42,188 nt of DNA from a virus. Lineage: Duplodnaviria > Caudoviricetes. The DNA lies in IMG/VR virus record IMGVR_UViG_3300012943_000016, positions 1 through 42,188 of that record; one strand, given 5' to 3'. Numbering within the stretch: the first letter of the stretch is position 1; the number at the start of each line of letters is the position of its first letter. Below the pieces are notes generated by a model. That model was not told where the DNA came from. It was given only the letters and a program-made list of their open reading frames with translations, and did not search any database. Below are positions 1 through 19,367 of this stretch, in pieces. Both the position numbers and the translations under genes were made by a program.

Positions 1-123
1 CGTCTTCGGATGCGATATCTATCGTGGCTGTATCTGGCATATGGTTACGGGATATGTTGTTCGAGTCCGCGCGCTCCCGTGTCGGCGCTCGTCTCGGCTT
101 CACCCGTCTCCGTGAGGGTGATC
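1..123. repeat. Terminal direct repeat (left copy), circular-contig overlap
   Basis: 1..123 is identical to 42066..42188. It spans the stop of ORF 45..434 and the start of the scaffold gene, so joining the ends restores a continuous operon. Confidence 0.95.
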
Positions 124-434
124 ACGCTAAAGGATTTGAATCGCTGCCACCCGGCTACGAAGCCGGCGGCAAACTTGCCCTGTGCCACCATGTCGGCCGG
201 CGGCGCGAAGGCGGCGTCCCGCATCTGCTGCTGGCCCGCGTTGTACATGATCACGTCGAGTTTCCGCATCAGCGGTGAGGCGAGCATCGCCCGCAGTTCC
301 GCCTGGTCGCTCTTCGTCAATGGCTCCGGCGGCTGCCAGCGCGCGGGCATCCGCAACGCCGCGATGATGGGCACCATGTCCGCCGGGATCTGCGCCCGCT
401 CTTCGCGGCCGAAAAATTTGCGCAGCCACTTCAC
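45..434 (-). CDS. Small head-morphogenesis-region protein between portal and scaffold
   Basis: 129-aa ORF with start overlapping the portal stop (431-434). Position is typical of podoviruses. Confidence 0.7.
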   Translation of the reverse strand: MKWLRKFFGREERAQIPADMVPIIAALRMPARWQPPEPLTKSDQAELRAMLASPLMRKLDVIMYNAGQQQMRDAAFAPPADMVAQGKFAAGFVAGWQRFKSFSVITLTETGEAETSADTGARGLEQHIP

Positions 435-2338
435 GCCGCACCTCCGATGTCGATCACGTCACCACCGCCGCCTTGCGGCTGGCCCATGCCCGGTGCCTGC
501 ATCTGCGCCTGTTGCTGCTTCGCCTGATCCACTTGATCCGCGAGCCCGGAGAGTTCTTGGAAAAGCGGCGCGCTCTGCTGCATCGCCTGCTGAAACCCCT
601 GCGGGTTTTTCTTCTTCATCGCCTGCATGTGCTGCTGGCCATGCTGCGCGAGCAGTCGCATCTGTTCAGGTGAGAGCGGTTCGCGCAGTTGTGTCCGCCG
701 CTGGATGAAGCCGGTGAGACTCTGCACATGCGCCGCGTCGTCATCGCTCGGCCGCACTTCCGCCGGGAAGCCGAGCAGCATGATGCTGATTTCCTCCGCC
801 TGATCCTCCATCTGCATCGCCGCCTGCGTGCCCGCGTTCAGCAGCAGCCGCTTCACCAGCCGCGGGTCGTCCGATTCGAGCACCGATTTATCCAGCTCCC
901 GCTGGTCGATGTTCGGATTACCGGTAAACATCTGCTTCCGCGCGATCGCCCGCTGCATCACGAACTGCCGGTTGATGTTGTCCCCGCTCCCACTCGGCTC
1001 GATCAGGTATTTATTGTTGAGCGCCGCGCCTGGCAGAGTGCCCAGTTCCCCGTCGAAGAAAAACTCCAGCTGCTCCTTCATGTACTGGATGAAGAGGCCC
1101 CACGTGAGGCGGAATCCATAGCCCAGCTCGCGGCGAAACACCCGCGCACGCAGGTCCATCGTCTGGTTCGCCATCCCGCCCACCATGTTCATCTCTGTCG
1201 CCGTGCGTGGCTTTTGTCCGGGCGCGTTCTGCGCCGCTCCGAAGTCCGGCGCCGCGATCGATTGCTCCGCCGTCATCCGTGTCATCTGCATCTGCACGCC
1301 GATGTCCATGGGCATCGCGGGGAACTGTACCGCCGTGACCTCGTAGGGTACGACCTCGCCCGGCACCATGCGGATATTCTGCGTGCCCGGCGGCAATCCG
1401 CTCTTCGCCGAAAACATCGGCGTGCACGTTAGCGTCTGGAAATCCTTTTGAGTGTTCCAGTCCTTGCACAGCGCCGCCTCGAACGGTGCCAGTCGCTCCG
1501 CCACGCCGCGGCCGGCATAGTAGCCCTTGTCCTTGATCTCTGAATTCAGCTCGAAAAACGGCGGCACATTCTCCGCGAACACCCCCTGATTGTACGGCAG
1601 GCCGAAATCTTCCCGCAGCTTATCCTTCGGCCGCGTCGGACTGTAGGTTCTCACCCACCACTGGCCCGCCTCATTCCGGTAAAAAACTTCCCACACCACG
1701 ATTTCCTCATCCGTCTTGCCGCAGGTCAGCCCCTCGCGACTCAACTTCTCCTCTTCGCTCCGCAGCGACTCCTCGCCCTTGCCGCAGATCGTCGCCACGA
1801 AAGCCTTGTCCTGGTTGAGTTCCTTGCGCCGCTTGTACGCCGCCTTCGAAAAATGCTGCACGTGCACGATCCAGTCGGCCTCCGCCAGCTTCTCCGTGCC
1901 GGCCGGCACGATCACGTAGAGAGGATGGATCGCGTCATACGCGACACGCCGCTTCTCCACATCCCAATAGACTTTCACCACGCACTTCGCGTGCAGCAGC
2001 ATCGTGTCGATCGCCGAAAAAATCTCGTCTTCGAAATTCGTCTTCTGCTTCACCTGGTAGTCAAACCACGCCGCCGCCGCGCTCTGGAACTGCGCCTGCC
2101 CCGCTGAGAGCGCCGCAAACGTCGCCAGCACATCCGTCGCGAACACCTGCTGCACATAGACCGGTTTGAGCTTTTCAAGCTGCATATCCACGAGCGGGAA
2201 ATGCATATCCGACGCATTCGGAAACGGCTTCACCCGCCGGCGCAGGCCGTCGTGGCGCATCTGATACCAAGTCGCCTGCCGCTCCTCCCACGTTTTACGT
2301 GCCGTGAGTGCGCCGAGGATTTCAGAGTGTTTGACCAT
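431..2338 (-). CDS. Portal protein (P22-like podovirus type)
   Basis: 635 aa directly after TerL, with a 'KPRTATE' motif and a Q-rich C-terminal coiled tail typical of podovirus portals. Confidence 0.9.
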   Translation of the reverse strand: MVKHSEILGALTARKTWEERQATWYQMRHDGLRRRVKPFPNASDMHFPLVDMQLEKLKPVYVQQVFATDVLATFAALSAGQAQFQSAAAAWFDYQVKQKTNFEDEIFSAIDTMLLHAKCVVKVYWDVEKRRVAYDAIHPLYVIVPAGTEKLAEADWIVHVQHFSKAAYKRRKELNQDKAFVATICGKGEESLRSEEEKLSREGLTCGKTDEEIVVWEVFYRNEAGQWWVRTYSPTRPKDKLREDFGLPYNQGVFAENVPPFFELNSEIKDKGYYAGRGVAERLAPFEAALCKDWNTQKDFQTLTCTPMFSAKSGLPPGTQNIRMVPGEVVPYEVTAVQFPAMPMDIGVQMQMTRMTAEQSIAAPDFGAAQNAPGQKPRTATEMNMVGGMANQTMDLRARVFRRELGYGFRLTWGLFIQYMKEQLEFFFDGELGTLPGAALNNKYLIEPSGSGDNINRQFVMQRAIARKQMFTGNPNIDQRELDKSVLESDDPRLVKRLLLNAGTQAAMQMEDQAEEISIMLLGFPAEVRPSDDDAAHVQSLTGFIQRRTQLREPLSPEQMRLLAQHGQQHMQAMKKKNPQGFQQAMQQSAPLFQELSGLADQVDQAKQQQAQMQAPGMGQPQGGGGDVIDIGGAA

Positions 2339-2350
2339 GGTTCAAAAAGT

Positions 2351-3748
2351 TCAGTCGCAGTAAGCCCCCGCCACCTGCCCGCGCCCCTCTTGTCGGGCCG
2401 CCTGCTCGAGCAATCCCATCTCGGGATCGGTCCATTGCATCAGCTTCACCGCTTTGAAATCCGGGTAGTCATAAGCCACGCCCACGATCGCATCCGCCCG
2501 GTCAGGACTCTTCGTGTTCGTGCGGCTCTTCGGCATCAACTGCAGCTTCCCATCCGGCCGGCCAAACACCTTCACACCGTCCCGCTCCACGTGCACTTCC
2601 TCCTTGTTGAGCAGTTGCTTTTTCAGGATCTCGTCGGCCGGGATGATCAGTTCGCCGCGCTTCAATTTGTCGTTGAGCTGCCACCACTGCTCCGCCGCGA
2701 GGTTGAAATAATGCGGATCGCGCGCCGGAGCATTATTCCCGACCGCCTGTATCTCCACGCCCATCTGCCGGAGCGCGACCAAGTAGCCGTGCCCCACGCC
2801 ATCCTCGTCTCCAAAAAGTTTATACCCCTCTCGGGTCAGCTCCTGCGCGTGTTTGAAAAACCGCATCGTGTTCCGTTCGCTGCTCGGATCGTTCGCCCAC
2901 AAGTCGCGCAGCGCGCACCGGTTCCCGTCTCGCACCGCGATCACGTTTTCATCGCCGCCCCCCTTTGCGAAATCGCAAAACGCCTGTTTGGTCCCCGCGC
3001 GGAAAACCGGCGGCCGGAGCATAGCGTTCTCGTAGTTCACGAACCCGATCACCCGTCCGTCGTTGTTTCCATCGCCGAACTCGCCCGCGATCATCGAGCG
3101 ATAGACGTCCGAATCCTCGCCGTACTGGATCCGCATCGCCTCGATGAATTCCGGCGTGATGTGCGGGCAGTCCGCCGTCGTGATCGCGAAAGACGCGAAG
3201 CGCCCGCTCTTGAACGAGTCGTAGAAGCGTCCGAGCAATCCTCCGGGCGACGAAATATAAAGCAGGTGCGTCGGCTGACACCGGTCGATCGCGATGAAGA
3301 TTTCATCCGCCACCGTCTTCGCCTCGTCCACGATGATCATCAGCGGCCGGCCCGGATACGCGTGGAACCCCTCGAACCGCCCGCCCGCATCAGTAGCGAA
3401 ACCAACGATACGCCCGCCCTCCGGCGTCTCGATCGAGGTTTCATTCCACTTCCAGCCCGCGAATTTTCCGCTGTGCGTTTTGAGCGCCGCAAACATCTGG
3501 TCGCGCACCTGGCGAAACGTCGCACTCGTCAGCACGACCGTTGCACCGGGGAATTCGTGGAGCATGCACAGCGCCAGCACGACGATGCACACCGAGGTCT
3601 TACCCGCGCCGTTCGGCGTGCGCGCCGTCGTCGGCCGTCCGCTCCACACGCTCATCATCAGCCGCGCCTGCCAGCCATAGAGCGTCATCGCGAGCGCGGC
3701 TATGGCGAAGCTCACCGGATTCACCTTTTGCGACATGTCGACCGTCAT
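2351..3748 (-). CDS. terL: Terminase large subunit
   Basis: Walker A TPNGAGKT, Walker B LMIIVDEA, and RNase H-like nuclease motifs DFAKGGGDENV and SPDRADA. Confidence 0.95.
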   Translation of the reverse strand: MTVDMSQKVNPVSFAIAALAMTLYGWQARLMMSVWSGRPTTARTPNGAGKTSVCIVVLALCMLHEFPGATVVLTSATFRQVRDQMFAALKTHSGKFAGWKWNETSIETPEGGRIVGFATDAGGRFEGFHAYPGRPLMIIVDEAKTVADEIFIAIDRCQPTHLLYISSPGGLLGRFYDSFKSGRFASFAITTADCPHITPEFIEAMRIQYGEDSDVYRSMIAGEFGDGNNDGRVIGFVNYENAMLRPPVFRAGTKQAFCDFAKGGGDENVIAVRDGNRCALRDLWANDPSSERNTMRFFKHAQELTREGYKLFGDEDGVGHGYLVALRQMGVEIQAVGNNAPARDPHYFNLAAEQWWQLNDKLKRGELIIPADEILKKQLLNKEEVHVERDGVKVFGRPDGKLQLMPKSRTNTKSPDRADAIVGVAYDYPDFKAVKLMQWTDPEMGLLEQAARQEGRGQVAGAYCD

Positions 3749-4317
3749 CAGCCGGCCCTCCGCTCGCCGCCGTTAAACTCCTGCTGCAATTGGATGATCT
3801 GCGCCCGCTGCTCCGGCGTGATCGTGTGGTGGTGGTTCACATCGCCCTCGATCTTAAGCACCAACTTGCCGAGCAGTGTGCCCAGCAGCGTGTCCGTTTG
3901 GTTCGCGAGCGTCATGAGCTCTCGCTCGCGTTTCCAGTCGCGGAGCGGTTTGGCCCGCAACTCCTCGATCTCCGCCTGCAAATCCGCGCTGCGTTGCCAA
4001 ACCCGTTTGATCAGCTGATCCGCATTGCCCGCAACTCGCGCCACCGCCTTCGCGAGAAACGCCGCGACTCCCGGCACCTTCATGATCTTCGAAGCATGCG
4101 CCTCCGGGTCGGCATAGCCGGCGGTCTTTCCCGCCGCGACCGCCGATCCAGTTTTCAAATACGCGACGCAAAATTCCAGCTGCTTGCGCGAAAGGACGGC
4201 CGCGCCCTGAGGCAAATCGGCGAGGCCCACCGCCTCGAACATTTCCTTCGCGCCCGGCAGCGTCAGCTGCTCCGCCTTATCGGCGTCGGAGGGCGGAAAA
4301 AGGAGAGGCGCGCTCAT
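3748..4317 (-). CDS. terS: Terminase small subunit
   Basis: N-terminal HTH signature LSRKQLEFCVAYLKTGSAVAAGKTAGY, abutting terL. Start placed at ATG 4317 (uncertain). Confidence 0.85.
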   Translation of the reverse strand: MSAPLLFPPSDADKAEQLTLPGAKEMFEAVGLADLPQGAAVLSRKQLEFCVAYLKTGSAVAAGKTAGYADPEAHASKIMKVPGVAAFLAKAVARVAGNADQLIKRVWQRSADLQAEIEELRAKPLRDWKRERELMTLANQTDTLLGTLLGKLVLKIEGDVNHHHTITPEQRAQIIQLQQEFNGGERRAG

Positions 4318-4362
4318 GCGAAATATCCACACGCGCGCGCCTCCGCGAACCAATCCAGAAAC

Positions 4363-4393
4363 CGGGTTAGTTCGGTGAACTAACCCGAACTAA
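4363..4393. promoter_or_regulatory. Perfect 11-bp inverted repeat plus a third GAACTAA copy upstream of terS
   Basis: CGGGTTAGTTC-ggt-GAACTAACCCG (4363-4387), with GAACTAA again at 4387-4393, in the early/late intergenic gap. Confidence 0.55.
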
Positions 4394-4400
4394 GTGTCAT

Positions 4401-4721
4401 TTAGTGCAAATTCGCGGGCAGGTAGTTGGCCAGCACGCACGCCACCTTGCGCCCGGCGCGTGTCGGCGAAATCGTCAGTCCGAACGGTCCGCGCGCAGCC
4501 GTGAAGCTCACGCGCTCGCCGTCATCCAGGCACTCGATGGTCACGCGAAACCCGGAAGCCTTGGCCCGCGGCATCACGCAATGCGACGTATCCGGCAACA
4601 CGGGATCGGCGAACGCACGCGCGAGCCGCTTGCATTCCTTCGCCGCGCGCTGGTTCGCGCGTTTCCGCAAATGCCGCCGCAGGTTCTCGCTGCGATGTAG
4701 TGACTTCCGCCTTACCATCAT
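4401..4721 (-). CDS. Basic hypothetical protein, last gene of the early operon
   Basis: 106-aa ORF with ATGA overlap with the upstream cassette gene at 4718-4721. Confidence 0.7.
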   Translation of the reverse strand: MMVRRKSLHRSENLRRHLRKRANQRAAKECKRLARAFADPVLPDTSHCVMPRAKASGFRVTIECLDDGERVSFTAARGPFGLTISPTRAGRKVACVLANYLPANLH

Positions 4722-5014
4722 TTTTCGATGTTGGTTATCCTATGGTTCGGCAAAAGTCTTTTCAGGATGCCGATGGCGTATTTCCCGAGAGCTGCGCGGA
4801 AGAAAGAGCCCTCGCAGTCCACGATGTACTCCCGGCCTTTGCGGGTCCACGGCGTGCCGTCCATCGCGACTTTGAAGATGATGCCCACCCGACGGAAGAG
4901 CACGATGTAGTATGACCGGAACTCTGGCACCTCTTCGATGCGGCAGCGCCACAGGCCGAACAAAGCCTCACAGCGCAACGCCTCTACGGGGTCTGTTTTG
5001 TTATCAGTGTCCAT
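4718..5014 (-). CDS. Cassette 1 hypothetical protein
   Basis: MDTDNKTDPVEALRCEALFG...LPNHRITNIEK. ATG 5014 lies in the attC1 loop. Confidence 0.7.
   Translation of the reverse strand: MDTDNKTDPVEALRCEALFGLWRCRIEEVPEFRSYYIVLFRRVGIIFKVAMDGTPWTRKGREYIVDCEGSFFRAALGKYAIGILKRLLPNHRITNIEK
4729..4751 (+). other. Left array boundary: attC right-arm half-site or attI-like site
   Basis: GTTGGTTA-tcctatg-GTTCGGC mimics the L'-spacer-R' arm of the attCs but has no complete left arm; only a degenerate GCCTTAC at 4709-4715. Confidence 0.55.
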
Positions 5015-5046
5015 GGTTCGGCGTGGCTGAAGATTGGGCGTTCGCC
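4955..5046 (+). other. attC-like site 1
   Basis: GCCGAAC...tcacagcgcaacgcc / ggcgtggctga...GTTCGCC (92 bp). Confidence 0.85.
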
Positions 5047-5627
5047 CAATTCGCCGTGAAGTAATCGGCCACGGTGTCCGCGAGAGCGGGCGGGATCTCT
5101 GCGCGGAGTTCGGGGCGCATCCCCGACTTTGCCATTTTCCCGCGTGGCAGCACGGGCATGAGAAGCGGCACGTCACCCCACAGCGCGTAGCTTTCGCACC
5201 GCACCGAGCCGGCGACGTGGCGCGCCGCGAAATTCGAGCACTCGACCAGCCGGCGCGGCCGGTCGCAGAGCGCTACGGACCAGGTGAGCAGGTCGAGCGC
5301 CCATTGCGCCGGCTGTTTGTCGCCGCGCAGCCACGGCAGCCAGGCGCGCGCGTATTCTTCGCACGGCGGCGACATCACCACCGCGTCAAATCTATTGATC
5401 CATTCGCGGTCGAGCGTGAGCACGTCGGCTTGCACGAACTCATGCGGGTAGCCGAGTGCGGCGATGTCCACGCCGACGCAGCGCCAGCCACGCGCCGCGA
5501 ATGATTTCGACCACCCGCCGACGCCGCAGAAGAGGTCCAAAACGGAGGGCGAACCAGACGCCACAGCACAATGCCGGGCGCTGTCACGTCCGTCCGCGAT
5601 GTCGATGCTTGGAGCAGCGCCCGTCAT
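5004..5627 (-). CDS. Cassette 2: short DNA cytosine-C5 methyltransferase-like protein
   Basis: Motif I VLDLFCGVGG, VGVDI, catalytic SPPC and a C-terminal RAEIPP. Much shorter than canonical Dcm; start uncertain. Confidence 0.8.
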   Translation of the reverse strand: MTGAAPSIDIADGRDSARHCAVASGSPSVLDLFCGVGGWSKSFAARGWRCVGVDIAALGYPHEFVQADVLTLDREWINRFDAVVMSPPCEEYARAWLPWLRGDKQPAQWALDLLTWSVALCDRPRRLVECSNFAARHVAGSVRCESYALWGDVPLLMPVLPRGKMAKSGMRPELRAEIPPALADTVADYFTANWANAQSSATPNHGH

Positions 5628-5648
5628 GGCTGAGCTTTTCCGTTAGGG
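5548..5648 (+). other. attC-like site 2
   Basis: GGCGAAC...cacagcacaatgccgggcgctg / cagcgcccgtcatggctga...GTTAGGG (101 bp). Confidence 0.85.
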
Positions 5649-5954
5649 CAGGCGTGACCAGTAGGCTTGGAGTTGTGCGCGGCATTCGTAGTAGGAATGA
5701 GCGCGACCGCTCGCCGCCTCGCCAGAGAAGCCGTCGGCCATCTCGTCATTGGCGGTTTCCTCAGCGTATTCTTCGAGCCCTTTAAGGATCGAGGAGATCG
5801 TCACGATTTCGAGCGGGGTGCTCTCGTCGAAGTGTTTCTTCTCGGCGTCCACGTCTGCCGCCGTCGCGTAGTTCCCCAGAAGCCCTAACCATGCGTCCAC
5901 AGCCAACGCCGGGGGCTGTCCGGCTGGCGATTGAGTTTCGGTTTTCGTATCCAT
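5643..5954 (-). CDS. Cassette 3 hypothetical protein
   Basis: 103 aa. Starts in the attC3 loop and stops at the TAA inside the attC2 core. Confidence 0.75.
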   Translation of the reverse strand: MDTKTETQSPAGQPPALAVDAWLGLLGNYATAADVDAEKKHFDESTPLEIVTISSILKGLEEYAEETANDEMADGFSGEAASGRAHSYYECRAQLQAYWSRLP

Positions 5955-6014
5955 AAAGTGCTGTCTTGATGTTATTGGTTTTCGCCCGGCGTCGGCTGAT
6001 CCGCGGCGTTCGGC
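5883..6014 (+). other. attC-like site 3
   Basis: CCCTAAC...cagccaacgccggg / cccggcgtcggctga...GTTCGGC (132 bp). Confidence 0.88.
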
Positions 6015-6292
6015 GAAGGCAGGTAGCGCACGAAGTCGAAGTCATACCACGACCAATCTACACCGGTTGCCGGTTCGATCTTCGACAGCCGGAAGACGGC
6101 GGTTTTCCCGCTCATCATCGCGACGTTGATTTCAACGCCTACGCGATCCGGGCAGCCGTGGTTATACCAGAACGTGGCGCACCCATGGGTGCGGATTGGT
6201 CGGGGGATCGGTTCGGCTTGCGCACGGTTACGCCGAACCACCCGTAGAGCCAACGCGGACAGGCGTGCTTTGGTTTTCGCGAGGGTCTTCAC
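5972..6292 (-). CDS. Cassette 4 hypothetical protein
   Basis: 106 aa. GTG start in the attC4 loop, stop in the attC3 loop, tail SPNAADQPTPGENQ. Confidence 0.65.
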   Translation of the reverse strand: MKTLAKTKARLSALALRVVRRNRAQAEPIPRPIRTHGCATFWYNHGCPDRVGVEINVAMMSGKTAVFRLSKIEPATGVDWSWYDFDFVRYLPSPNAADQPTPGENQ

Positions 6293-6337
6293 GTGTTCGA
6301 GGGCTTAGAGCCGCGTGGCTCACTTGGGACGTTAGCC
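6232..6337 (+). other. attC-like site 4
   Basis: GCCGAAC...gagccaacgcgg / ccgcgtggctca...GTTAGCC (106 bp). Confidence 0.88.
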
Positions 6338-6571
6338 TTGGAGCTGGATTTGAACGTCCATGCTAAACGGCGGCTCGGCACCCATCACGAGATGCGGGCC
6401 GAATATCTGCATCAGTTCCCACATTTGGATGGTACACCATCCATCGGCATCTTCGTTGGGCGGTCCTGATTCGATTCCGATCCGCTCGCGGTCCTGCATG
6501 AAAATCTCGCGCCCTTTGGTATTAAGTTGCACGCGCACGTAGTTGTTCAGATTCCAGATTTGAAAGTTCAT
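6332..6571 (-). CDS. Cassette 5 phage-type hypothetical protein
   Basis: MNFQIWNLNNYVRVQLNTKG...QMWELMQIFG; stop TAA lies within the attC4 core. Confidence 0.75.
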   Translation of the reverse strand: MNFQIWNLNNYVRVQLNTKGREIFMQDRERIGIESGPPNEDADGWCTIQMWELMQIFGPHLVMGAEPPFSMDVQIQLQG

Positions 6572-6589
6572 ATTTTCGGTTAAAAGAAT

Positions 6590-6657
6590 GGCTAACCAGC
6601 GATTACACACAACCTCCGGAGCTTCGCTCCTTCGGTGTGTGACCCGCGATGTTAGCC
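6590..6657 (+). other. attC-like site 5
   Basis: GGCTAAC...acacacaacc / ggtgtgtga...GTTAGCC (68 bp), with an inner ggagc-ttc-gctcc hairpin. Confidence 0.9.
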
Positions 6658-6995
6658 GGACGCCGAAGCTCCGAAAGTAGGTAGTCGCCCACTTCAGGAA
6701 GCTGGTCGCTGTTGAGTTCGATGCTTTTGCGTGAGCGTGGCATCCAATCGAAGCGCATCGCGTTTCCGTTTGCGTCGAACCACTCTACCCATCCTCCGGG
6801 TAGCTGTTTCCACCACGCCTTCACACCCCATGCCCTCCATGAGAGATCGCCGTCCTCGCGGCGCGTGAGATACCAGCCTTTGCGGCGTGGGGTTGTTTCT
6901 TTGTCTTTCCAGAGGCTAACCATCGCACCACAGCCAACGCCCTTGTCCGGGGCTTCGGCGGTATCTGTATCCACTTTATTGTTACTTGAGGTCAT
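6603..6995 (-). CDS. Cassette 6 Trp-rich hypothetical protein
   Basis: 130 aa with P..KGWYLTR...W...W. Start in the attC6 loop, stop in attC5. Confidence 0.75.
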   Translation of the reverse strand: MTSSNNKVDTDTAEAPDKGVGCGAMVSLWKDKETTPRRKGWYLTRREDGDLSWRAWGVKAWWKQLPGGWVEWFDANGNAMRFDWMPRSRKSIELNSDQLPEVGDYLLSELRRPANIAGHTPKERSSGGCV

Positions 6996-7036
6996 AGAGT
7001 TGTTCTCAGGGCGTCGGCTGATTGCGGTCGTTCGGC
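6914..7036 (+). other. attC-like site 6
   Basis: GGCTAAC...cagccaacgccct / agggcgtcggctga...GTTCGGC (123 bp). Confidence 0.88.
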
Positions 7037-7324
7037 TTCATCCTCAGCGTCGAGATCAGGAAGCGACTCCAACGACACTGCGCATTCGTCGGCAAATCGG
7101 TTGATCGCGTATCCGTGGGAGCGACTGGCAAGCACATGCGACCCGTCAAAGTCGGTCTCTCCCGTGGCAGTGCAGCAGATCGGCTGGCCCGACTGCGTAT
7201 GCGTCCAGACGGTCGCGCCGTTTTCGAAAGAAACCGCCGAACCAGAGCTGCCAGACCCAACGCCCTTGCTTTTCAGTTCTTCGACAGCAGCCGTCCGACG
7301 CTCCACATCAGTTGTATTTTCCAT
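6992..7324 (-). CDS. Cassette 7 hypothetical protein
   Basis: MENTTDVERR... starts in the attC7 loop; its TGA overlaps the next ATG (6992-6995). Confidence 0.7.
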   Translation of the reverse strand: MENTTDVERRTAAVEELKSKGVGSGSSGSAVSFENGATVWTHTQSGQPICCTATGETDFDGSHVLASRSHGYAINRFADECAVSLESLPDLDAEDEAERPQSADALRTTL

Positions 7325-7371
7325 AGTATTACAGCCCGCGCGGCGGGCGTTGGTCATCAGCGTTGTTCGCT
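7236..7371 (+). other. attC-like site 7
   Basis: GCCGAAC...gacccaacgccc / gggcgttggtca...GTTCGCT (136 bp). Confidence 0.85.
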
Positions 7372-7676
7372 AAGGAAAAAGCCGCGCGCACGCACTCGGG
7401 ACATAGTTGCGCCGTCCGGCTTTCGTAGTCCGGCGGCTCGCCGACCTGAATCAGAGCATCCACCTCTTTTTTGCACTCATCGCATGTCATGCGTGTCCAG
7501 CTTCGATTCCCGATGATGCGTTCGATGTCATCCTCGGTCGCGGTTTCCACGTTGATACGATCTAGTTCTTTGGCGATTTTGCCTTTCGAGTCGTCCCACT
7601 TTTGGAACGGCGTATATGTCTGCCGCCAGTGCGCGGGCACTCTGCGGATGATTTCTCTTTTGGTCGTGAGGTTCAT
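7329..7676 (-). CDS. Cassette 8 zinc-finger-like protein
   Basis: CDEC...CPEC motifs; stop in the attC7 loop. Confidence 0.75.
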   Translation of the reverse strand: MNLTTKREIIRRVPAHWRQTYTPFQKWDDSKGKIAKELDRINVETATEDDIERIIGNRSWTRMTCDECKKEVDALIQVGEPPDYESRTAQLCPECVRAAFSLANNADDQRPPRGL

Positions 7677-7683
7677 GATCGGA

Positions 7684-7803
7684 AGCGAACCATCCACTAG
7701 AGCCAACGGCCCTAGCTTCAGGCGGATTGTTGATTAGGGCGTGCGGTCGATTTTCTGGCTAGGTATCCCGCTCTCGGGGCCGTTGCTCACTGGGGCGTTC
7801 GAC
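7684..7803 (+). other. attC-like site 8
   Basis: AGCGAAC...gagccaacggccc / gggccgttgctca...GTTCGAC (120 bp). Confidence 0.88.
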
Positions 7804-8144
7804 CTACTCGGCGCGGTGACTCCGAGCGCGACGAGCGCAGCGTATGCTTTGCCGCGATACTTTCCGCGCTGGAATCGGTGCAGGGCGATCCACGGAGTAT
7901 CTTGCCCTTCGTGGCGGTTGTGCTCCGCGTGGATTGCGCGAGCCACCTTGTCTTGCATTTTCTCAAATGCTTTAGGCGAGCACTGGCCGTCCCCGAATAC
8001 TTCGCACGCGCGGCACGGCGTTGCCTGCTTCCTGAGTTCGGCATGGAGTTCGGACGCAAGCACGCTGCATTTTGTCAGCGCCTTGGATGCGCCTGCTGCC
8101 TCGATGGCATGGCAGAGCGCGAGAGCTTTCTTAGATGTTGTCAT
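7734..8144 (-). CDS. Cassette 9 hypothetical protein
   Basis: 136 aa; tail RSNAPVSNGPESG is encoded by the attC8 right arm. Confidence 0.75.
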   Translation of the reverse strand: MTTSKKALALCHAIEAAGASKALTKCSVLASELHAELRKQATPCRACEVFGDGQCSPKAFEKMQDKVARAIHAEHNRHEGQDTPWIALHRFQRGKYRGKAYAALVALGVTAPSRSNAPVSNGPESGIPSQKIDRTP

Positions 8145-8167
8145 GTTTTCGTGAGGTTAAAAGAGAG

Positions 8168-8225
8168 GTCGAACCAAGCCATCACAGCCAACGCCTAGCG
8201 GCGTGGCTGACTGGCGATGTTCGAC
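8168..8225 (+). other. attC-like site 9 (classic ~59-base element)
   Basis: GTCGAAC-caagccatcacagccaacgcc-tagc-ggcgtggctgactggcgat-GTTCGAC (58 bp). Confidence 0.92.
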
Positions 8226-8413
8226 GCGGCGGCCTTCGCCAGTTCTGCGATCTCCCGTGCGAGCGATCGCCTTTGCTTCTTCGTCTCGCACAGGTCGATT
8301 GCCTCGAGCCAGTAGTGCTCAGATAGCCGAGCGCGGGCGAAGAGCTGTGCGAGCGCCGCTTTCGAACCAGCGACCACACCCAACGCGGATGACGTGTCGT
8401 TTTGATTACTCAT
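8195..8413 (-). CDS. Cassette 10 hypothetical protein
   Basis: MSNQNDTSSALGVVAGSK...ASNIASQPRR. Start in the attC10 loop, TAG at the attC9 apex. Confidence 0.7.
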   Translation of the reverse strand: MSNQNDTSSALGVVAGSKAALAQLFARARLSEHYWLEAIDLCETKKQRRSLAREIAELAKAAASNIASQPRR

Positions 8414-8449
8414 GGCTGTTTTCGCGTGGGTGATTCGCGGTCGTTGGCC
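8361..8449 (+). other. attC-like site 10
   Basis: TTCGAAC...cacccaacgcg / cgcgtgggtga...GTTGGCC (89 bp). Confidence 0.85.
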
Positions 8450-8745
8450 GAACAAGATTTCCGCCGTGAAGTCCGCTCCTTCCAAATCCTCACAGCCTCA
8501 GTCCAAAAGATACTCTGCCATACTCCATCTACTCGGCTGTGCATCCGATCTAGTTCCTTTATCAAGCGAAGGCGCAAGCGTCGCAGATCAGCGGCTGGCA
8601 ATACGGCTTCTTCGCCTGCAAGCTCACGTTTTATCGCTGCAAGAGAAAGCCGAGACCTCCGAACGGAAAACGAAAAGGGCTTAGTGAAATTTCGTGCTGC
8701 GCACGCTTCGATTATAGCGGGGACTTCAGTTGTTTTGGTTTTCAT
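8410..8745 (-). CDS. Cassette 11 hypothetical protein (visibly lower GC)
   Basis: 111 aa; TGA overlaps the next ATG (8410-8413) inside attC10. Confidence 0.65.
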   Translation of the reverse strand: MKTKTTEVPAIIEACAARNFTKPFSFSVRRSRLSLAAIKRELAGEEAVLPAADLRRLRLRLIKELDRMHSRVDGVWQSIFWTEAVRIWKERTSRRKSCSANDRESPTRKQP

Positions 8746-8755
8746 AAGAAAAGAG

Positions 8756-8859
8756 GGCTAACCAGTTCGATAGTGGGAACACATTTTAAGCGGCCAACGG
8801 GCGCGAGGGGCAGCAACGGGCGGGCTCAGGAGCTGTGTCCCACATCTCCATTGCTCGGC
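8756..8859 (+). other. attC-like site 11 with altered core (GCT instead of GTT)
   Basis: GGCTAAC...gtgggaacaca / tgtgtcccaca-8 nt-GCTCGGC (104 bp). Confidence 0.7.
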
Positions 8860-9059
8860 AAGTGGAGGTGGGTGAGGCCGTGGCGCTCGATGTATGCTGC
8901 GTGTATGTAGCCCTGATCCCATGCGGCTGCTTTGGCTGCGTCGCTTGGGTAGGGATTTGGTGTGCGAAAACTGCCGCGCCTCTGGGTCATATAGCCCGCT
9001 TGATATGCGTCTCGGTAGATATCCCCGGAAGCCGAGCCCGCCGCCTTTAGTGTATCCAT
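8826..9059 (-). CDS. Rmf/CrpP-fold-like small protein
   Basis: AYQAGY...PNPY...AWDQGY resembles the ribosome modulation factor pattern GYQAG...CPY...W.GGW. Confidence 0.55.
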   Translation of the reverse strand: MDTLKAAGSASGDIYRDAYQAGYMTQRRGSFRTPNPYPSDAAKAAAWDQGYIHAAYIERHGLTHLHLPSNGDVGHSS

Positions 9060-9091
9060 ATTTTTAGACCCCGGAAAATTAATTGCTCCAC

Positions 9092-9391
9092 TCACAGCAT
9101 TTTCTCGATCGCGCGTTCCGTTTTCTTCATCCCCTCGGCGATGTCCGAGATGGTCCAGCCGGCCTTCTTGCGTAGTATCGCCGCCACTACGCGGCGCTTC
9201 CTCGCGGTGTCCCGCTCCTTGCTCCGGCCCTGCAGTGTCCGCACGCCGATTCCCGCCTGGCGGCATGCCTCCGCCAGTTCCGGATCCACTTCCGCTGCCG
9301 GCACCAGGCCGCGCAGACCATTCGCCGCCTCCAGCTCGTTCATGCGTTTTCGCATCCGCGCAAACTCCATCTTCATCTCGTCGGTACTCAC
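9092..9391 (-). CDS. DnaA C-terminal-like helix-turn-helix protein
   Basis: LQGRSKERDTARKRRVVAAILRKKAGWTISDIAEGM matches the DnaA domain IV pattern; directly after the initiator. Confidence 0.7.
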   Translation of the reverse strand: MSTDEMKMEFARMRKRMNELEAANGLRGLVPAAEVDPELAEACRQAGIGVRTLQGRSKERDTARKRRVVAAILRKKAGWTISDIAEGMKKTERAIEKML

Positions 9392-10299
9392 CGTGCACCG
9401 CCCTTCGCCATCTGCTCCCGGATGAATTTGCGATCAATCGCCGCGTGCGCTTTCCACGCGAGCGGCCCCGGCTCCTGTCCCGCTGCGTATTTCCAAGCAG
9501 GGAAATTTTCATCCATCCACGCCTGCCAGCCCTCCGGCTCGTCCCTCCCCGTGGCTCGCTCCTGCCGCTCCTCCGTACGCACCGGAGCTTTCGGCAGCCA
9601 AGCCTCCGCGAAAAACCGCAGTTCCAGCTCCGCCTTCTCGCCGCGTTCCTTGCGCACGTACGCCAGCGCCTCACGCCGCTGCTGCGCGAGGTCCACGAGA
9701 GGGAACCGCCGTTGCAGCTCCTCAAAATCCGACTCATCCAAAATTTTATTGTGTCGTGTCGTCGTCGTCGCCTCCGGCAACGCACCGAACGCCGGAGCCC
9801 CCGGCGCCGGAGAACTAGAACCACGACCACTACTCTCTTCTTCTCTTCTCTTCTCTTCTCTGGTCCCGATTTCCGGCGGTTTCTGTCCGCCATCTGTCCG
9901 GCTTTTGTCCGGACACATGGCGGACAAACGTCCGGCCCTTGTCTGCTCCGCCTCCGCGATTCGTGAGGCCCGTTTCCGCTCCATTTCCAACGCCCGCACT
10001 TTCGCAGACTCGCCATTATGCCGGTCAAATTTCGGAAACCTCACGCCCTCCGCTGTGCACTCGATCCAGCCCACATCCTCCATCGCCGCAGTGAATCCAC
10101 GCCGGCCCAGCTTCTCGTCGATCACCTTGGCCGTCACATGCGGCAGGAACCCGTCCGCCGCGTGCTCATCCGCCCAGCTCCACAGCGTTTGCAGCCGCCC
10201 CACGACACCGTAGCGGTCGAGTTTTGTCCGCGCGGCGATGCCTATCACCGCAGGATCGTCGGCGAGGTTCATCCGCATTTTAATCCAGTCGTTGGCCAT
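9388..10299 (-). CDS. Phage replication initiator / replisome organizer
   Basis: MANDWIKMRMNLADDPAV...VVGRLQTLWSWADEH N-terminus typical of phage initiators, with a low-complexity linker carrying iterons. Confidence 0.8.
   Translation of the reverse strand: MANDWIKMRMNLADDPAVIGIAARTKLDRYGVVGRLQTLWSWADEHAADGFLPHVTAKVIDEKLGRRGFTAAMEDVGWIECTAEGVRFPKFDRHNGESAKVRALEMERKRASRIAEAEQTRAGRLSAMCPDKSRTDGGQKPPEIGTREEKRREEESSGRGSSSPAPGAPAFGALPEATTTTRHNKILDESDFEELQRRFPLVDLAQQRREALAYVRKERGEKAELELRFFAEAWLPKAPVRTEERQERATGRDEPEGWQAWMDENFPAWKYAAGQEPGPLAWKAHAAIDRKFIREQMAKGGAR
9833..9935. repeat. Putative replication origin (iterons inside the initiator gene)
   Basis: Clustered TGTCCG/CGGACA repeats (9884-9935) next to a (TCTCT/TCT)n pyrimidine tract, like lambdoid origins inside O-type genes. 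Confidence 0.6.
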
Positions 10300-12837: not shown

Positions 12838-13089
12838 TCAGCTCGCGCTCCTCCGCGTTCTGCGCGCCGCATTTCCCGGCGCGGCCATCGGCACCTGGTC
12901 GATCAAGTCCGCCACCTGCGGCGGAGCGTCATGCATCCCGCATACCTGGTGCTCCATCGTCCGCGGCCACCTGTAGTCGCCCACCGGCGGCAGCGCCGTG
13001 CAGCATTTCACGGTCACGTCATCGAGCCGCACCGGCCGCGCGCCGTTCGTCACGTCCCGCCAGTGGATGCACGTCTTGCAAGTATTCAT
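12838..13089 (-). CDS. Small Cys-rich metal-binding phage protein
   Basis: CKTCIHW...CC...PP...WPRT...CGMH. Confidence 0.65.
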   Translation of the reverse strand: MNTCKTCIHWRDVTNGARPVRLDDVTVKCCTALPPVGDYRWPRTMEHQVCGMHDAPPQVADLIDQVPMAAPGNAARRTRRSAS

Positions 13090-13125
13090 GAAGTGGAGAC
13101 AGAAAAGAAAACCGGGAAAATATTT

Positions 13126-13227
13126 TCGCCCCTGCACCGGCCGCGTTCGCCGGACGGTTGAGAAGTCAGCCGGAGCGGAAGCCGTGGCCTTTCGGCGCGT
13201 GCCACCACCCGGCCGGTGCCAGGGCGA
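13126..13227 (-). ncRNA. Candidate structured RNA element (unassigned)
   Basis: Intergenic. Long closing stem (tcgccc...caccggccg / cggccggtg...gggcga) enclosing a GAAA-tetraloop hairpin and a cggctga-cttc-tcaaccg hairpin, followed by a U-rich tract on the - strand. Confidence 0.4.
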
Positions 13228-13233
13228 GAGTGT

Positions 13234-14088
13234 TTAGAGGCCGATACTCTCCACGCTGCCGAGCAGCACGGGCAGGCCGGTGTCCTTGGCGATCGCGTCG
13301 CGCACGTCCTTAAACGCGAGTTCCACGAGGCGGTGCGGGCGGTCCAGCAGGTAGGTGAATTGTACCGCGCGGTTCACCAGCTTGGTGCGCAAGCGCGCTT
13401 TGATCGCGTACCGTGTGCCACCGATGAAAGGCTGCAACGCCAGCTCCATCTCGGTCGGCACCTCCATCGCGCCGCCCGGCCCGGCCTGCTGCTGTAGATT
13501 CTCCACGTACTGGAGCTGCACCTGGCCGTTGCTGAGTCGCGTCGCGCTGTTAAACGTCACGTCGTTTTTCATCACGAGCGATTGCGCAATCTGGAGCATA
13601 TCGATTCCCGAGGGCTTTTGGATCTCGCCGAGCATGTCTTCGACAAACTCCGCGAAAGCCTGTTGCCCCATCGGTTTCTCGTTATTCTCGATCCAGCGCT
13701 TCCACTCCGGCGTCTGCGCCATCGCGTAGTTCACGCGATGCTCGCCCCATGCCGGACGCTGCTCGCTTGCCGGCGCGTCTGCTCCGAGATCCTCGCTGCC
13801 CTCATGCCCGTCGATCACCGCGGCAAACGCGCCGCCGCTCAGGCTCGCGCGACCGTACAATGCCGTGCCTGGCTGCCGGTGGTTCTTCACGTAGCGGATG
13901 AACGACTCGCCGTCATCCACGGCCACCTTCGCGCGCTTGCGACGCGGACGATCGGCGTGCTTTTCGAGCGAGGTGATGGTCTTGTCGGGAAAGATCAGGA
14001 CCGAGGTCCAAAGATCGCGCGTATCGACGCGATCGTGTTGCTGTGCCGCGCGGACGATGTCCGCCACTGCTCCTGCTTCTGTGCTCAT
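13234..14088 (-). CDS. yfdQ: YfdQ / DUF2303 family protein
   Basis: SLEKHADRPRRKRA...SFIRYV...AVIDGH...WGEHR...TPEWKRW...QQAFAEFVED. Confidence 0.85.
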   Translation of the reverse strand: MSTEAGAVADIVRAAQQHDRVDTRDLWTSVLIFPDKTITSLEKHADRPRRKRAKVAVDDGESFIRYVKNHRQPGTALYGRASLSGGAFAAVIDGHEGSEDLGADAPASEQRPAWGEHRVNYAMAQTPEWKRWIENNEKPMGQQAFAEFVEDMLGEIQKPSGIDMLQIAQSLVMKNDVTFNSATRLSNGQVQLQYVENLQQQAGPGGAMEVPTEMELALQPFIGGTRYAIKARLRTKLVNRAVQFTYLLDRPHRLVELAFKDVRDAIAKDTGLPVLLGSVESIGL

Positions 14089-18006: not shown

Positions 18007-19128
18007 CTAAGACCGGATCACCCCCGGCCTCAATCCCCAAAACACCTTCGCCGCCTTCTCGTCCACGAGCCGGTGATAATGGCGGAAGATGATGTCCGGG
18101 CTGTTGCCCGCCTCGCGCGCCACCGCGCCCTCGTCCGGCTTTATGGCGAGGCGCATCGAGATGAAGGTGTGCCGCGGAGTATCCTGCCCCCAGGTCACGC
18201 CCGCCGCCTTGGCGATGCGCACGCGCCAGTACCGGTGCACATCGTATAGAGCGGCCGGATACGCCTTCAACCACGCGATCGCATTTGGGGAGAGCGGCAC
18301 GGTGCGGTTGGCCCGTCCCCGCGTCTTGCCGCCCTCCACGCGCACACACGGTTCACCCGCCAGCTCCACGCGGCAATGTGCGAGTTCGCTCGGCCTCACT
18401 CCCGCGAAAAGCAGCAGCACCAGGCCAGCCACCGCCTCCGGCGCCCGGCGTGCGGTTTCGTCGAGGATCGCGCGCGCTTCCCCTGCCCACCAAATCGCCG
18501 GCCGCGCCCGTTCCACATGCGGCCTCCGCAGGCGACTCACCGGGTTTTCCCGCAGCCACCCCTTCGATTCGAGCCACCCGCAAAAACTCGACGCGGCGTT
18601 CAGGTCGTTGCGTCGTGTCGCGGCGGATACGCCCTTGCGCATCAGCAGCAATTCCGCCGCCTCCCGATTGATCTCCGCCACATCGGTCACCGCCGCCATT
18701 TCCAGCCACGCCCCCACGCGCAAGCGCAAATTCTGTATCGCCCGCATAGCCCGGTTTTCAGCCTGCTTCACCTTGAGGAATTCCGCGAGCGCCGCGCGCG
18801 CATCGCGTGCCGCAACCGTGCTCGTCCCGAGCTGCTGCACATAGAAACGAGCGATATCCACCATCGAGTCCCGCAGATTGGCCACAGACAGGACTTCGCG
18901 GGCGGCAAAATAGTCAGCCCGCGCGCGATGATCGAATTCCACGCCCGATGTGCCCGAAACCACCAGCTGCCGGTTGATCTCGTTGAGGTGCTTTTCTGCC
19001 TCGTCCCTTTCCACAAAGTGGCGGCGCACCCGGCGTGCGCGCCCGCGTCGATCCTTCTTTGACGGGTCGGAGTAAACGACCTGCCACATCGGTTTCGGTT
19101 TGGTCACGGAGTAGAGTTTTGCGAGCAC
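18007..19128 (-). CDS. int: Phage tyrosine integrase
   Basis: Arm-binding N-terminus, SAM-like domain, and catalytic GVRPSEL, GKTR, PRHTF, AGNS and RHY motifs; adjacent to attP. Confidence 0.92.
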   Translation of the reverse strand: MLAKLYSVTKPKPMWQVVYSDPSKKDRRGRARRVRRHFVERDEAEKHLNEINRQLVVSGTSGVEFDHRARADYFAAREVLSVANLRDSMVDIARFYVQQLGTSTVAARDARAALAEFLKVKQAENRAMRAIQNLRLRVGAWLEMAAVTDVAEINREAAELLLMRKGVSAATRRNDLNAASSFCGWLESKGWLRENPVSRLRRPHVERARPAIWWAGEARAILDETARRAPEAVAGLVLLLFAGVRPSELAHCRVELAGEPCVRVEGGKTRGRANRTVPLSPNAIAWLKAYPAALYDVHRYWRVRIAKAAGVTWGQDTPRHTFISMRLAIKPDEGAVAREAGNSPDIIFRHYHRLVDEKAAKVFWGLRPGVIRS

Positions 19129-19145
19129 GCCCAGAGCCCCCCGGT

Positions 19146-19367
19146 TTTGACCTCCACAGGCAAGGGTTTTGGGTCAAATGTGGGTCAAATTTCACGCCGT
19201 CTCCTCTGGAAACCACAGGTCTCCGAAGCCGTAGATGTGGGTTCGATTCCCGCCGCTCGCACCAGAAAAAACAGGTGGTTTTCAGAGGTAAATCCGGGAA
19301 ATTCACGGAATTGATCAAATGGGCGACTTGGGATGGATGAGAGGCCCGCGCGGTCAAATATTTGACC
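19146..19367. other. attP region with arm-type repeats
   Basis: TGGGTCAAAT tandem (19170-19179 and 19181-19190), TTTGACC (19146-19152), GATCAAAT (19313-19320) and the palindrome GGTCAAATATTTGACC (19352-19367) flank the tRNA core. Confidence 0.8.
19218..19264 (+). tRNA. 3' half of tRNA-Arg(CCG): attP core, not a complete tRNA
   Basis: ggt-CTCCGAA-gccgt-agat-GTGGG-TTCGATT-CCCGC-cgctcgc-A-CCA. The D-arm and 5' acceptor strand are absent. Confidence 0.85.

What the first reader, a model, noticed from the sequence alone, without database searches (positions are those of the whole stretch)
4745..8859. Phage-borne integron-like array: 11 attC-delimited cassettes form the variable part of the early operon
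Seen: between the replication genes and terS are 11 imperfect inverted repeats of 58-136 bp (starts 4955, 5548, 5883, 6232, 6590, 6914, 7236, 7684, 8168, 8361, 8756). Each runs NNNNAAC - spacer - stem with extra unpaired bases in the left arm - variable loop - stem - 7-9 nt - GTTNNNN (GCT in the last), with exactly one small ORF per unit. Established: this is attC architecture and size range, and integrons are rarely reported in phages. Inference: the region equivalent to lambda nin is built from recombinable cassettes. Several carry phage-type genes rather than typical bacterial cassette cargo, which suggests a phage-specific cassette pool.
Basis: partly seen in the sequence, partly recalled or inferred. 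Interest (0 to 1): 0.95.

Follow-up and report, generated by a model that had tools for sequence, protein, structure and literature searches.

The report
Phage integron array with reversed cassettes
This complete phage genome keeps eleven small genes as integron-type cassettes that face the opposite way to bacterial ones and turn up in other samples beside other neighbours, cut at the same recombination point; having no integron integrase of its own, it likely borrows one from its host or from another phage to swap them.

Summary
Confirmed and extended. The array has ten good attC sites and one degenerate one. Each left core matches the right core of the previous site (42 of 44 variable bases, p 4e-6), the mark of cassettes inserted as circles. 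(1) The genes lie on the attC bottom strand: 88 bottom vs 3 top in other phage arrays, against 4 vs 85 in chromosomal integrons of the likely host family. Seven of 11 genes start inside the attC loop, and read-through genes cross the crossover in one frame (58 of 59). (2) Bases 4722-4751 are an attI-like docking site tied to a conserved 106-aa gene that stands where related phages have an intact intI. Identical cassettes occur with other neighbours in four other data sources, cut at G|TT, and two otherwise identical phages differ by one 601-bp cassette at this site type. This genome has no IntI. Phage CALINs are published (Qi 2023); eight literature searches found no report of the reversed layout. 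This scan noted the reversed layout before in many other genomes; the link between the 106-aa gene and attI was not among the notes I saw. Recombination itself is untested.

The parts
4401..4721 (-). ORF106: conserved 106-aa protein of no known family, in the position that intI has in related phage arrays; its ATG overlaps the stop of the first cassette gene (ATGA)
   Evidence: 102 homologs; 13 viral loci, arrays upstream in 10 of 10 with enough flank; model = long basic helix + 3-strand/1-helix domain, no fold match
4722..4751 (+). attI-like docking site; crossover G4745|T4746
   Evidence: same motif and GTT core upstream of ORF106 homologs in 12 of 12 loci with sequence; 23 nt from ATG to core in 8 loci and here; one 601-bp cassette inserted at this site type in L415 vs L413
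4955..5046 (+). attC 1 (top strand +)
4718..5014 (-). cassette 1 gene (cassette 4746-5040), 98 aa, starts in attC loop, reads through attI
5548..5648 (+). attC 2
5004..5627 (-). cassette 2 gene (5041-5642), 207 aa, DNA methyltransferase-like
   Evidence: phrog_363 E 1e-14; 80% to a cassette gene in L180
5883..6014 (+). attC 3
   Evidence: 91% copy with other cargo in L127
5643..5954 (-). cassette 3 gene (5643-6008), 103 aa, stop in the core
   Evidence: whole cassette 87% identical in L132, ends at both cores
6232..6337 (+). attC 4
5972..6292 (-). cassette 4 gene (6009-6331), 106 aa, weak coding score
6590..6657 (+). attC 5
   Evidence: 97% copy with other cargo in L127
6332..6571 (-). cassette 5 gene (6332-6651), 79 aa, stop in the core
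   Evidence: phrog_5792; identical piece ending at 6653 with another neighbour in run X11
6914..7036 (+). attC 6
6603..6995 (-). cassette 6 gene (6652-7030), 130 aa
   Evidence: identical piece from 6650 in X6, 6658-7032 in X5
7236..7371 (+). attC 7
6992..7324 (-). cassette 7 gene (7031-7365), 110 aa
   Evidence: identical piece from 7029 behind a different attC arm in X5/X6
7684..7803 (+). attC 8
7329..7676 (-). cassette 8 gene (7366-7797), 115 aa
   Evidence: piece ending at 7799 in X11
8168..8225 (+). attC 9 (58 bp)
7734..8144 (-). cassette 9 gene (7798-8219), 136 aa
   Evidence: whole cassette 7797-8223 with 4 differences inside a 5,372-bp contig of X13, both flanks different
8361..8449 (+). 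attC 10
8195..8413 (-). cassette 10 gene (8220-8443), 72 aa
   Evidence: near-identical pieces behind three different attC arms in X2, X5/X6 and X11
8756..8859 (+). degenerate attC 11 ending in a GCT core; the bases after G8853 belong to the resident phage DNA
   Evidence: run X2 has another attC arm before 8853 and identical DNA after it
8410..8745 (-). cassette 11 gene (8444-8853), 111 aa, weak coding score
   Evidence: in X1 a second contig has an attI-like end before 8443
8826..9062 (-). resident 78-codon ORF that reads into site 11; weak RMF match below cut-off
3748..4317 (-). terminase small subunit (context)
9388..10299 (-). replication initiation protein (context)

Best explanation
The region is a phage integron array without its own integrase: an attI-like site (4722-4751) heads eleven attC cassettes whose genes lie on the strand opposite to that of bacterial cassettes, and an IntI supplied in trans by the host or a co-infecting phage likely inserts, removes and reorders them at G|TT. 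Shown: site anatomy, core matching, strand of the genes, no IntI in this complete genome, and cassette movement with breakpoints at the cores in relatives. Inferred: (a) reversal lets the phage's leftward early transcript (replication genes towards terS) read every cassette without a Pc promoter, so the newest cassette is the last of the array on that transcript; (b) the attC loop supplies the stop of the incoming gene and often the start of its own gene, and a shared reading frame across the crossover keeps any new order translatable and often translationally coupled; (c) ORF106 and its attI travel as one module that replaces the intI-attI platform of related phages; (d) the cargo is accessory early genes, with DNA methyltransferases the commonest known class, probably against host restriction; (e) the host is probably Verrucomicrobiota (Opitutaceae).
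For: Core matching: 42/44 to the previous site vs 25/44 to the own site, p 4e-6; 457/484 vs 248/484 in 121 units of 25 other viral loci. Polarity, three lines: bulge side; shared and duplicated cassettes carry the attC on their right; the model trained on these sites hits the strand facing away from intI in phage and chromosomal integrons. Gene strand: phage 88 bottom / 3 top / 30 uncalled of 121; cellular and metagenome loci 0/22/5 of 27; ORF106-linked arrays 23/1/9 of 33; host-family chromosomes 4/85/31 of 120. A relative (portal and capsid 57% identical) has an IntI over the TIGR02249 cut-off (282 vs 265 bits) with the catalytic residues invariant, and a perfect duplicate of its first cassette. 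Mobility. Frame: 58/59, 20/20, 8/9 here; all 21 phage attI sites next to intI give a stop in that frame within 54 nt. Supply in trans: IntI over cut-off in 65 of 151 genomes of the likely host family, and one chromosomal array holds two phage-type reversed cassettes. IntI1 recombined 5 of 6 phage attC sites tested by Qi 2023.
Against: No recombination was tested. The core-matching test is symmetric and does not itself give polarity. Site 11 is degenerate. The attI call rests on motif and position and on insertions in relatives, not on an empty site in this phage. Not every shared piece ends at a crossover: cassette 2 shares only the gene body with L180, L127 has attC 3 and 5 with other genes, and several loose ends lie at left arms or inside genes (only 21 of 39 and 19 of 37 loose ends were shown). 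Gene strand came from my own amino-acid score, trained on this genome, and a quarter of units were uncalled. Host top-strand genes that run into their own attC also favour one frame (15 of 20), so part of the frame bias may follow from site sequence. Phage IntIs are not an exclusive clade: chromosomal Opitutaceae-type IntIs nest among them. The host is weakly assigned: capsid matches of 35% and 28% in 2 of 401 genomes. No transcript data.
Confidence: 0.86

Rival explanations
1. The array is a fossil taken over as a block from an IntI-bearing phage; in IntI-less phages cassettes change only by homologous recombination between the similar attC repeats.
For: No IntI here; last site degenerate; the sites share sequence; some shared pieces end at attC left arms or pair an attC with another gene.
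Against: Identical cassettes are joined to dissimilar attC arms exactly at the core, which homologous exchange would not favour; L415 vs L413 differ by one cassette placed at the attI core, and the 98%-complete record lacks IntI.
Confidence: 0.06
2. A phage protein takes part in or performs the reaction: ORF106 as an attI- or hairpin-binding cofactor or directionality factor, or the phage's own tyrosine integrase (18007-19128) as the recombinase.
For: ORF106 is tied to attI at a fixed 23 nt and to arrays in otherwise unrelated phages. Only 1 of 13 such records has an IntI, with a stop in it. ORF106 was not found in 23 IntI or array records. It is small and basic.
Against: The 23-nt spacing is explained by ATGA coupling alone. 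ORF106 has no recombinase motif and no known family. The phage integrase does not match TIGR02249. Complete array-bearing phages exist without ORF106 and without an intact IntI (G119, G005). Most records are incomplete, and one search had no positive control. As a cofactor this reading is compatible with the best explanation.
Confidence: 0.06
3. The repeats are RNA hairpins (terminators or processing sites) or gene-boundary linkers, not recombination sites.
For: They are hairpins between co-oriented genes of one operon.
Against: Core matching to the previous site; same sequence family as chromosomal attC next to intI; no excess of terminator-like sites (10 vs 12.2 in shuffles); no Rfam match beyond E 0.22.
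Confidence: 0.02

Closest known systems
Phage-borne CALINs and integrons (Qi et al. 2023, Front Microbiol, PMC9892861; read: main text parts 1-4 of 7, supplement 1 part 1 of 2)
   Same: attC clusters without intI in phage genomes; methyltransferase cargo; sites recombined by IntI1
   Different: They found 17 CALINs in 10,705 phages, with 2-4 sites in the 14 listed in Table S1, and describe them as typical arrays; their complete integrons are captured host or class 1 pieces. The one TJE1 site I located has genes on the top strand. Here there are 11 sites, reversed genes, protein-coding attC arms, an attI-like site and shown cassette traffic.
Sedentary chromosomal integrons of Opitutaceae / Verrucomicrobiota (intI, attI, attC; TIGR02249)
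   Same: same attC sequence family (172 hits of the phage-trained model in 20 regions); same intI-attI-attC geometry in IntI-bearing phages; related IntIs
   Different: genes on the top strand in 85 of 89 called units; in phages intI is co-oriented with the cassette genes and usually lies 29-68 nt from the attI core
Inverted-integrase ('reverse') integrons, e.g. of Spirochaetota (passages seen in 10.1101/2025.02.12.637893 and 10.1101/2022.02.06.479319)
   Same: intI and cassette genes end up co-oriented
   Different: there intI and attC are on the same strand; here attC keeps the normal polarity and the genes are turned
Synthetic protein-coding attC sites (Nivina et al. 2020, Sci Adv, PMC7439510; passages seen)
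   Same: attC sites can encode peptide and still recombine
   Different: engineered; here natural attC arms encode gene ends in a common frame

Membership tests
Complete integron | intI (integron integrase) beside the array | tested here: not met
   0 of 1 with TIGR02249 in the complete genome; no hit with a profile of 46 related IntIs. Met in the relative L132.
Complete integron | attI site at the head of the array | tested here: inconclusive
   conserved motif and core in 12 relatives, one-cassette insertion there in L415; its left box differs from the attI next to phage intI; function untested
Complete integron | Pc promoter driving top-strand cassette genes | tested here: not met
   genes are on the bottom strand; no sigma-70-like site near attI (weak test for this host)
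attC cassette / CALIN | R''-L''-loop-L'-R' hairpin with extrahelical bases on the bottom strand | tested here: met
   10 of 11 sites; site 11 degenerate
attC cassette / CALIN | cassette ends complementary as in a circular intermediate | tested here: met
   42/44 bases, 9 of 11 exact, p 4e-6
attC cassette / CALIN | unit moves with breakpoints at G|TT | tested here: met
attC cassette / CALIN | cluster of attC without intI | tested here: met
attC cassette / CALIN | hit by the IntegronFinder attC model | not testable with these tools
   model not available; my own model built from these sites finds chromosomal attC next to intI on the expected strand
attC cassette / CALIN | ORF on the attC top strand (usual, not absolute) | tested here: not met
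   8 bottom, 0 top, 2 uncalled here; 88 vs 3 in other phages
attC cassette / CALIN | bottom-strand recombination by IntI | not testable with these tools
   needs an assay
Inverted-integrase (reverse) integron | [quoted passage not shown] | tested here: not met
   in the IntI-bearing relatives with reversed genes the attC top strand faces away from intI

The most novel reading that the evidence does not exclude
Phages run their own cassette economy: reversed, frame-registered cassettes whose attC sites are coding sequence, traded between unrelated phages. This genome shows a stripped platform in which a small dedicated phage protein (ORF106) beside attI recruits or steers a borrowed host IntI, a new accessory factor of integron recombination.
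Probability: 0.28. Interest if true: 0.93.

Novelty: new variant of a known kind. Interest (0 to 1): 0.8.

Why it matters
Integrons are viewed as bacterial devices that also stock anti-phage genes. Here phages use the same chemistry for their own accessory genes, with the genes turned to fit a phage operon. That gives a site-specific route to phage mosaicism and a possible store of counter-defence genes such as methyltransferases. The same attC found with different genes, and genes starting inside attC, offer a handle on the open question of how cassettes are created. Natural coding attC sites with a shared frame are a ready design for in-frame gene shuffling.

Tried and rejected
Rfam: one chance-level hit. 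First viral pattern scan: 120 stretches, nearly all chance; my right-arm pattern confirmed 3, of which 2 led to arrays directly; a stricter scan gave 28. Terminase as a single query found no loci. Replication-protein relatives (17 loci) gave no attC hits with R1 or, for 13 of them, with R2. No blastn match of the array in 50,697 GenBank phage records. ORF106: no Pfam, PHROG or NCBIfam family; no usable Atlas hit; no fold match for the whole model or the C-terminal domain (best Z 4.3 and 3.8), which excludes no fold; not found in 101 host-family genomes. No RNA holder listed. No joint that skips exactly one cassette was seen in 8 laid runs; X6 and X7 look like one data set filed twice and X1 may be the source. 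No tRNA gene. A scanner hit at 34661-34794 was not supported by the models. I first doubted that 4745 was an attI because it lacks the left box seen next to phage intI; the ORF106 loci changed that. One search used a wrong end for site 11, corrected. An earlier count gave 593 bp for the L415 insert; the coordinates give 601 bp. Left out before counts: L191 (duplicate of L180), L184, L198, L201, L210, L223, L229 (duplicates), L415 (same phage as L413), units with gaps under 60 or over 1,100 bp, and the 22 weakest of 172 host hits. Literature: 8 searches found no report of the reversed layout; subscription journals, bioRxiv supplements and Qi's Dryad annotation files could not be seen and may bear on this.
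Full report
Setting. The window is a whole 42,188-bp virus record with direct terminal repeats, rated complete. It has head, terminase, replication and integrase genes. The early and packaging genes in this part all run on the minus strand. The array lies between the replication initiator (9388-10299) and terS (3748-4317). There is no integron integrase; the phage integrase at 18007-19128 does not match TIGR02249.

The observation. Ten fold as attC-like hairpins. The last, 8756-8859, ends in GCT, folds poorly and is missed by both models. The strongest internal test is core matching. A cassette that was once a circle has a left core complementary to the core at its own start, which in an array is the right core of the previous site. 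This holds for 42 of 44 variable bases (9 of 11 exact), against 25 of 44 for the site's own core; p = 4e-6 in a million permutations. The test does not give polarity.

Polarity. The unpaired bases lie on the left arm as read on the plus strand, as in the aadA7 site printed in Qi 2023 Table S3. Shared and duplicated cassettes carry the attC to their right. A model trained on these sites hits the strand facing away from intI in phage and chromosomal integrons. So plus is the top strand and all eleven ORFs are on the bottom strand. Seven predicted starts lie inside the attC loop; two genes stop in the TAA of the next core and nine read into the next site, eight of them in the frame that reads the core AAC as Asn.

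Other phages. A pattern scan gave three arrays (L127, L132, L133). L132 is a relative (portal 57%, capsid 57%, terL 35%). Its array ends at an attI-like core followed by a 324-aa IntI over the family cut-off, with the catalytic residues invariant across 46 relatives. L127 has only an N-terminal stub. An IntI profile then gave 80 viral, 80 genome and 80 metagenome loci. With an amino-acid coding score of my own, 121 units in 25 viral loci gave 88 bottom, 3 top and 30 uncalled; 27 units in 12 cellular or metagenome loci gave 0, 22 and 5. The matched control, 20 chromosomal regions from the likely host family, gave 4 bottom, 85 top and 31 uncalled of 120 units in 15 loci. Two of those four are phage-type cassettes inside one 5.8-Mb chromosome. 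Read-through genes use one frame in 58 of 59 cases; that frame's stop overlaps the next start as ATGA in 18 of 87 sites, against 9 of 88 and 4 of 87 for the other frames. Host genes that run into their own attC also favour one frame (15 of 20), so the bias is not wholly a phage trait. In 21 phage intI loci the first cassette's core matches the attI core 7/7 in 19 and 6/7 in 2. In a FastTree tree of 111 IntIs, those with reversed cassettes fall in two phage-rich clades, but chromosomal IntIs with normal cassettes nest in one of them.

Mobility. Cassette 3 is 87% identical in L132 from core to core with other neighbours. L132 holds a perfect copy of an internal cassette in first position, ending at both cores. 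Public contigs from four sources other than the probable source sample hold identical or near-identical cassettes of this array joined to other DNA at the cores: cassette 10 behind three different attC arms, cassette 9 whole (7797-8223, 4 differences) in a 5.4-kb contig, cassette 7 from 7029, cassette 6 from 6650, cassette 5 to 6653, cassette 8 to 7799. Run X2 has another attC arm before 8853 with identical resident DNA after it, so the GCT core marks the fixed old end. Other loose ends lie at attC left arms or inside genes, and not all rows were shown. Cassette 2 shares only its gene body with L180, and L127 has attC 3 and 5 with other genes: gene and attC are also re-paired, by a route not shown here.

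The platform. Downstream of the array on the transcript, where relatives have intI, this phage has a 106-aa ORF (4401-4721) with 102 homologs. All 12 viral loci with upstream sequence show the same short motif and GTT core; the ATG is 23 nt from the core in the 8 loci where my script placed it and in this window. All 10 loci with enough flank (9 distinct phages) have an array there, with 23 bottom, 1 top and 9 uncalled units. One of the 13 records has an IntI, with a stop in it; 5 of the 13 are at least 90% complete. L413 and L415 are 100% identical over the fetched stretch except for one 601-bp cassette at this core. So 4722-4751 is an attI-like site of a type that still takes cassettes without an IntI in cis. 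The 23-nt spacing makes the first cassette's stop overlap the ORF106 start, which may be all it means. ORF106 is predicted as a long basic helix plus a three-strand, one-helix domain with no match.

Mechanism. Shown: anatomy, polarity, lack of IntI, and movement at G|TT in relatives. From established integron biology (PMC8946536, passages seen): IntI cuts the folded bottom strand and resolves by replication, which fits the duplicated cassette. Inferred: a borrowed IntI acts here, since 65 of 151 genomes of the family of a record titled Opitutus carry one and named relatives of the L132 IntI are Opitutaceae; the host assignment itself is weak. Also inferred: reversal places cassettes under the phage early transcript, and the shared frame keeps shuffled orders translatable. 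Cargo: 17 of 88 phage cassette proteins have a PHROG match, 9 of them DNA methyltransferases; here 2 of 11.

Known and new. Phage attC clusters and their recombination by IntI1 are published (Qi 2023), and a 2026 review passage cites only that work (PMC13492144). Eight searches found no account of reversed cassettes, coding attC arms or phage-adapted platforms. This scan's notes hold the same reading for many other genomes (257 notes matched my words); I had reached it before looking. They are unchecked AI notes and add no support. No note matched ORF106 or this stretch by sequence. Verdict: a real integrase-less attC array that works like an integron but is not a complete integron; a new variant of a known kind; interest 0.8.

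Noticed in passing
L236:8995-11944, L197:2218-5125, L409 (GenBank KX853513, Virus Rctr41k) 4680-9434: A second phage layout: an IntI-like gene with no upstream attI, followed by weak attC-like hits downstream on the same strand as the genes; these IntIs form their own viral clade. KX853513 annotates the gene as xerD.
   Followed up: partly
L202, L206-L208, L212-L214, L216, L220-L222, L224, L231: A third all-viral IntI clade with a compact attI-like end just before intI, but almost no hits of my attC model; probably another attC type.
   Followed up: partly
L446:6589-7390 (G043:C1): Two phage-type reversed cassettes inside a normal chromosomal integron of the likely host family.
   Followed up: yes
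L127:1265-1396 and 2706-2773: Near-identical copies of attC 3 (91%) and attC 5 (97%) in front of unrelated genes; bears on how cassettes are made.
   Followed up: partly
L127, minus strand from 963: N-terminal stub of an IntI next to attI in a complete 70-kb phage.
   Followed up: partly
L169:3316-9975 vs window: In this relative the array and intI lie upstream of ssb and the replication gene, and the place before terS has no array; in L421 the array is before terS as here.
   Followed up: yes
window 8826-9062 (-): 78-codon ORF with a weak ribosome modulation factor match (PF04957, E 1.5e-5, below cut-off); it reads into site 11 in the same frame as cassette genes and may be an old cassette that lost its attC.
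   Followed up: no
window 19130-19360: Non-coding stretch beside the integrase that looks like a tRNA 3' fragment (possible attP; impression from the translated ORF list); no whole tRNA found.
   Followed up: partly
window 19377-28091 (-): A 2,904-aa protein among the virion genes, not examined.
   Followed up: no
L204:120-527 and 12892-13374: Further attC sites away from the intI-linked array, one pair on the other strand, also with bottom-strand genes.
   Followed up: no
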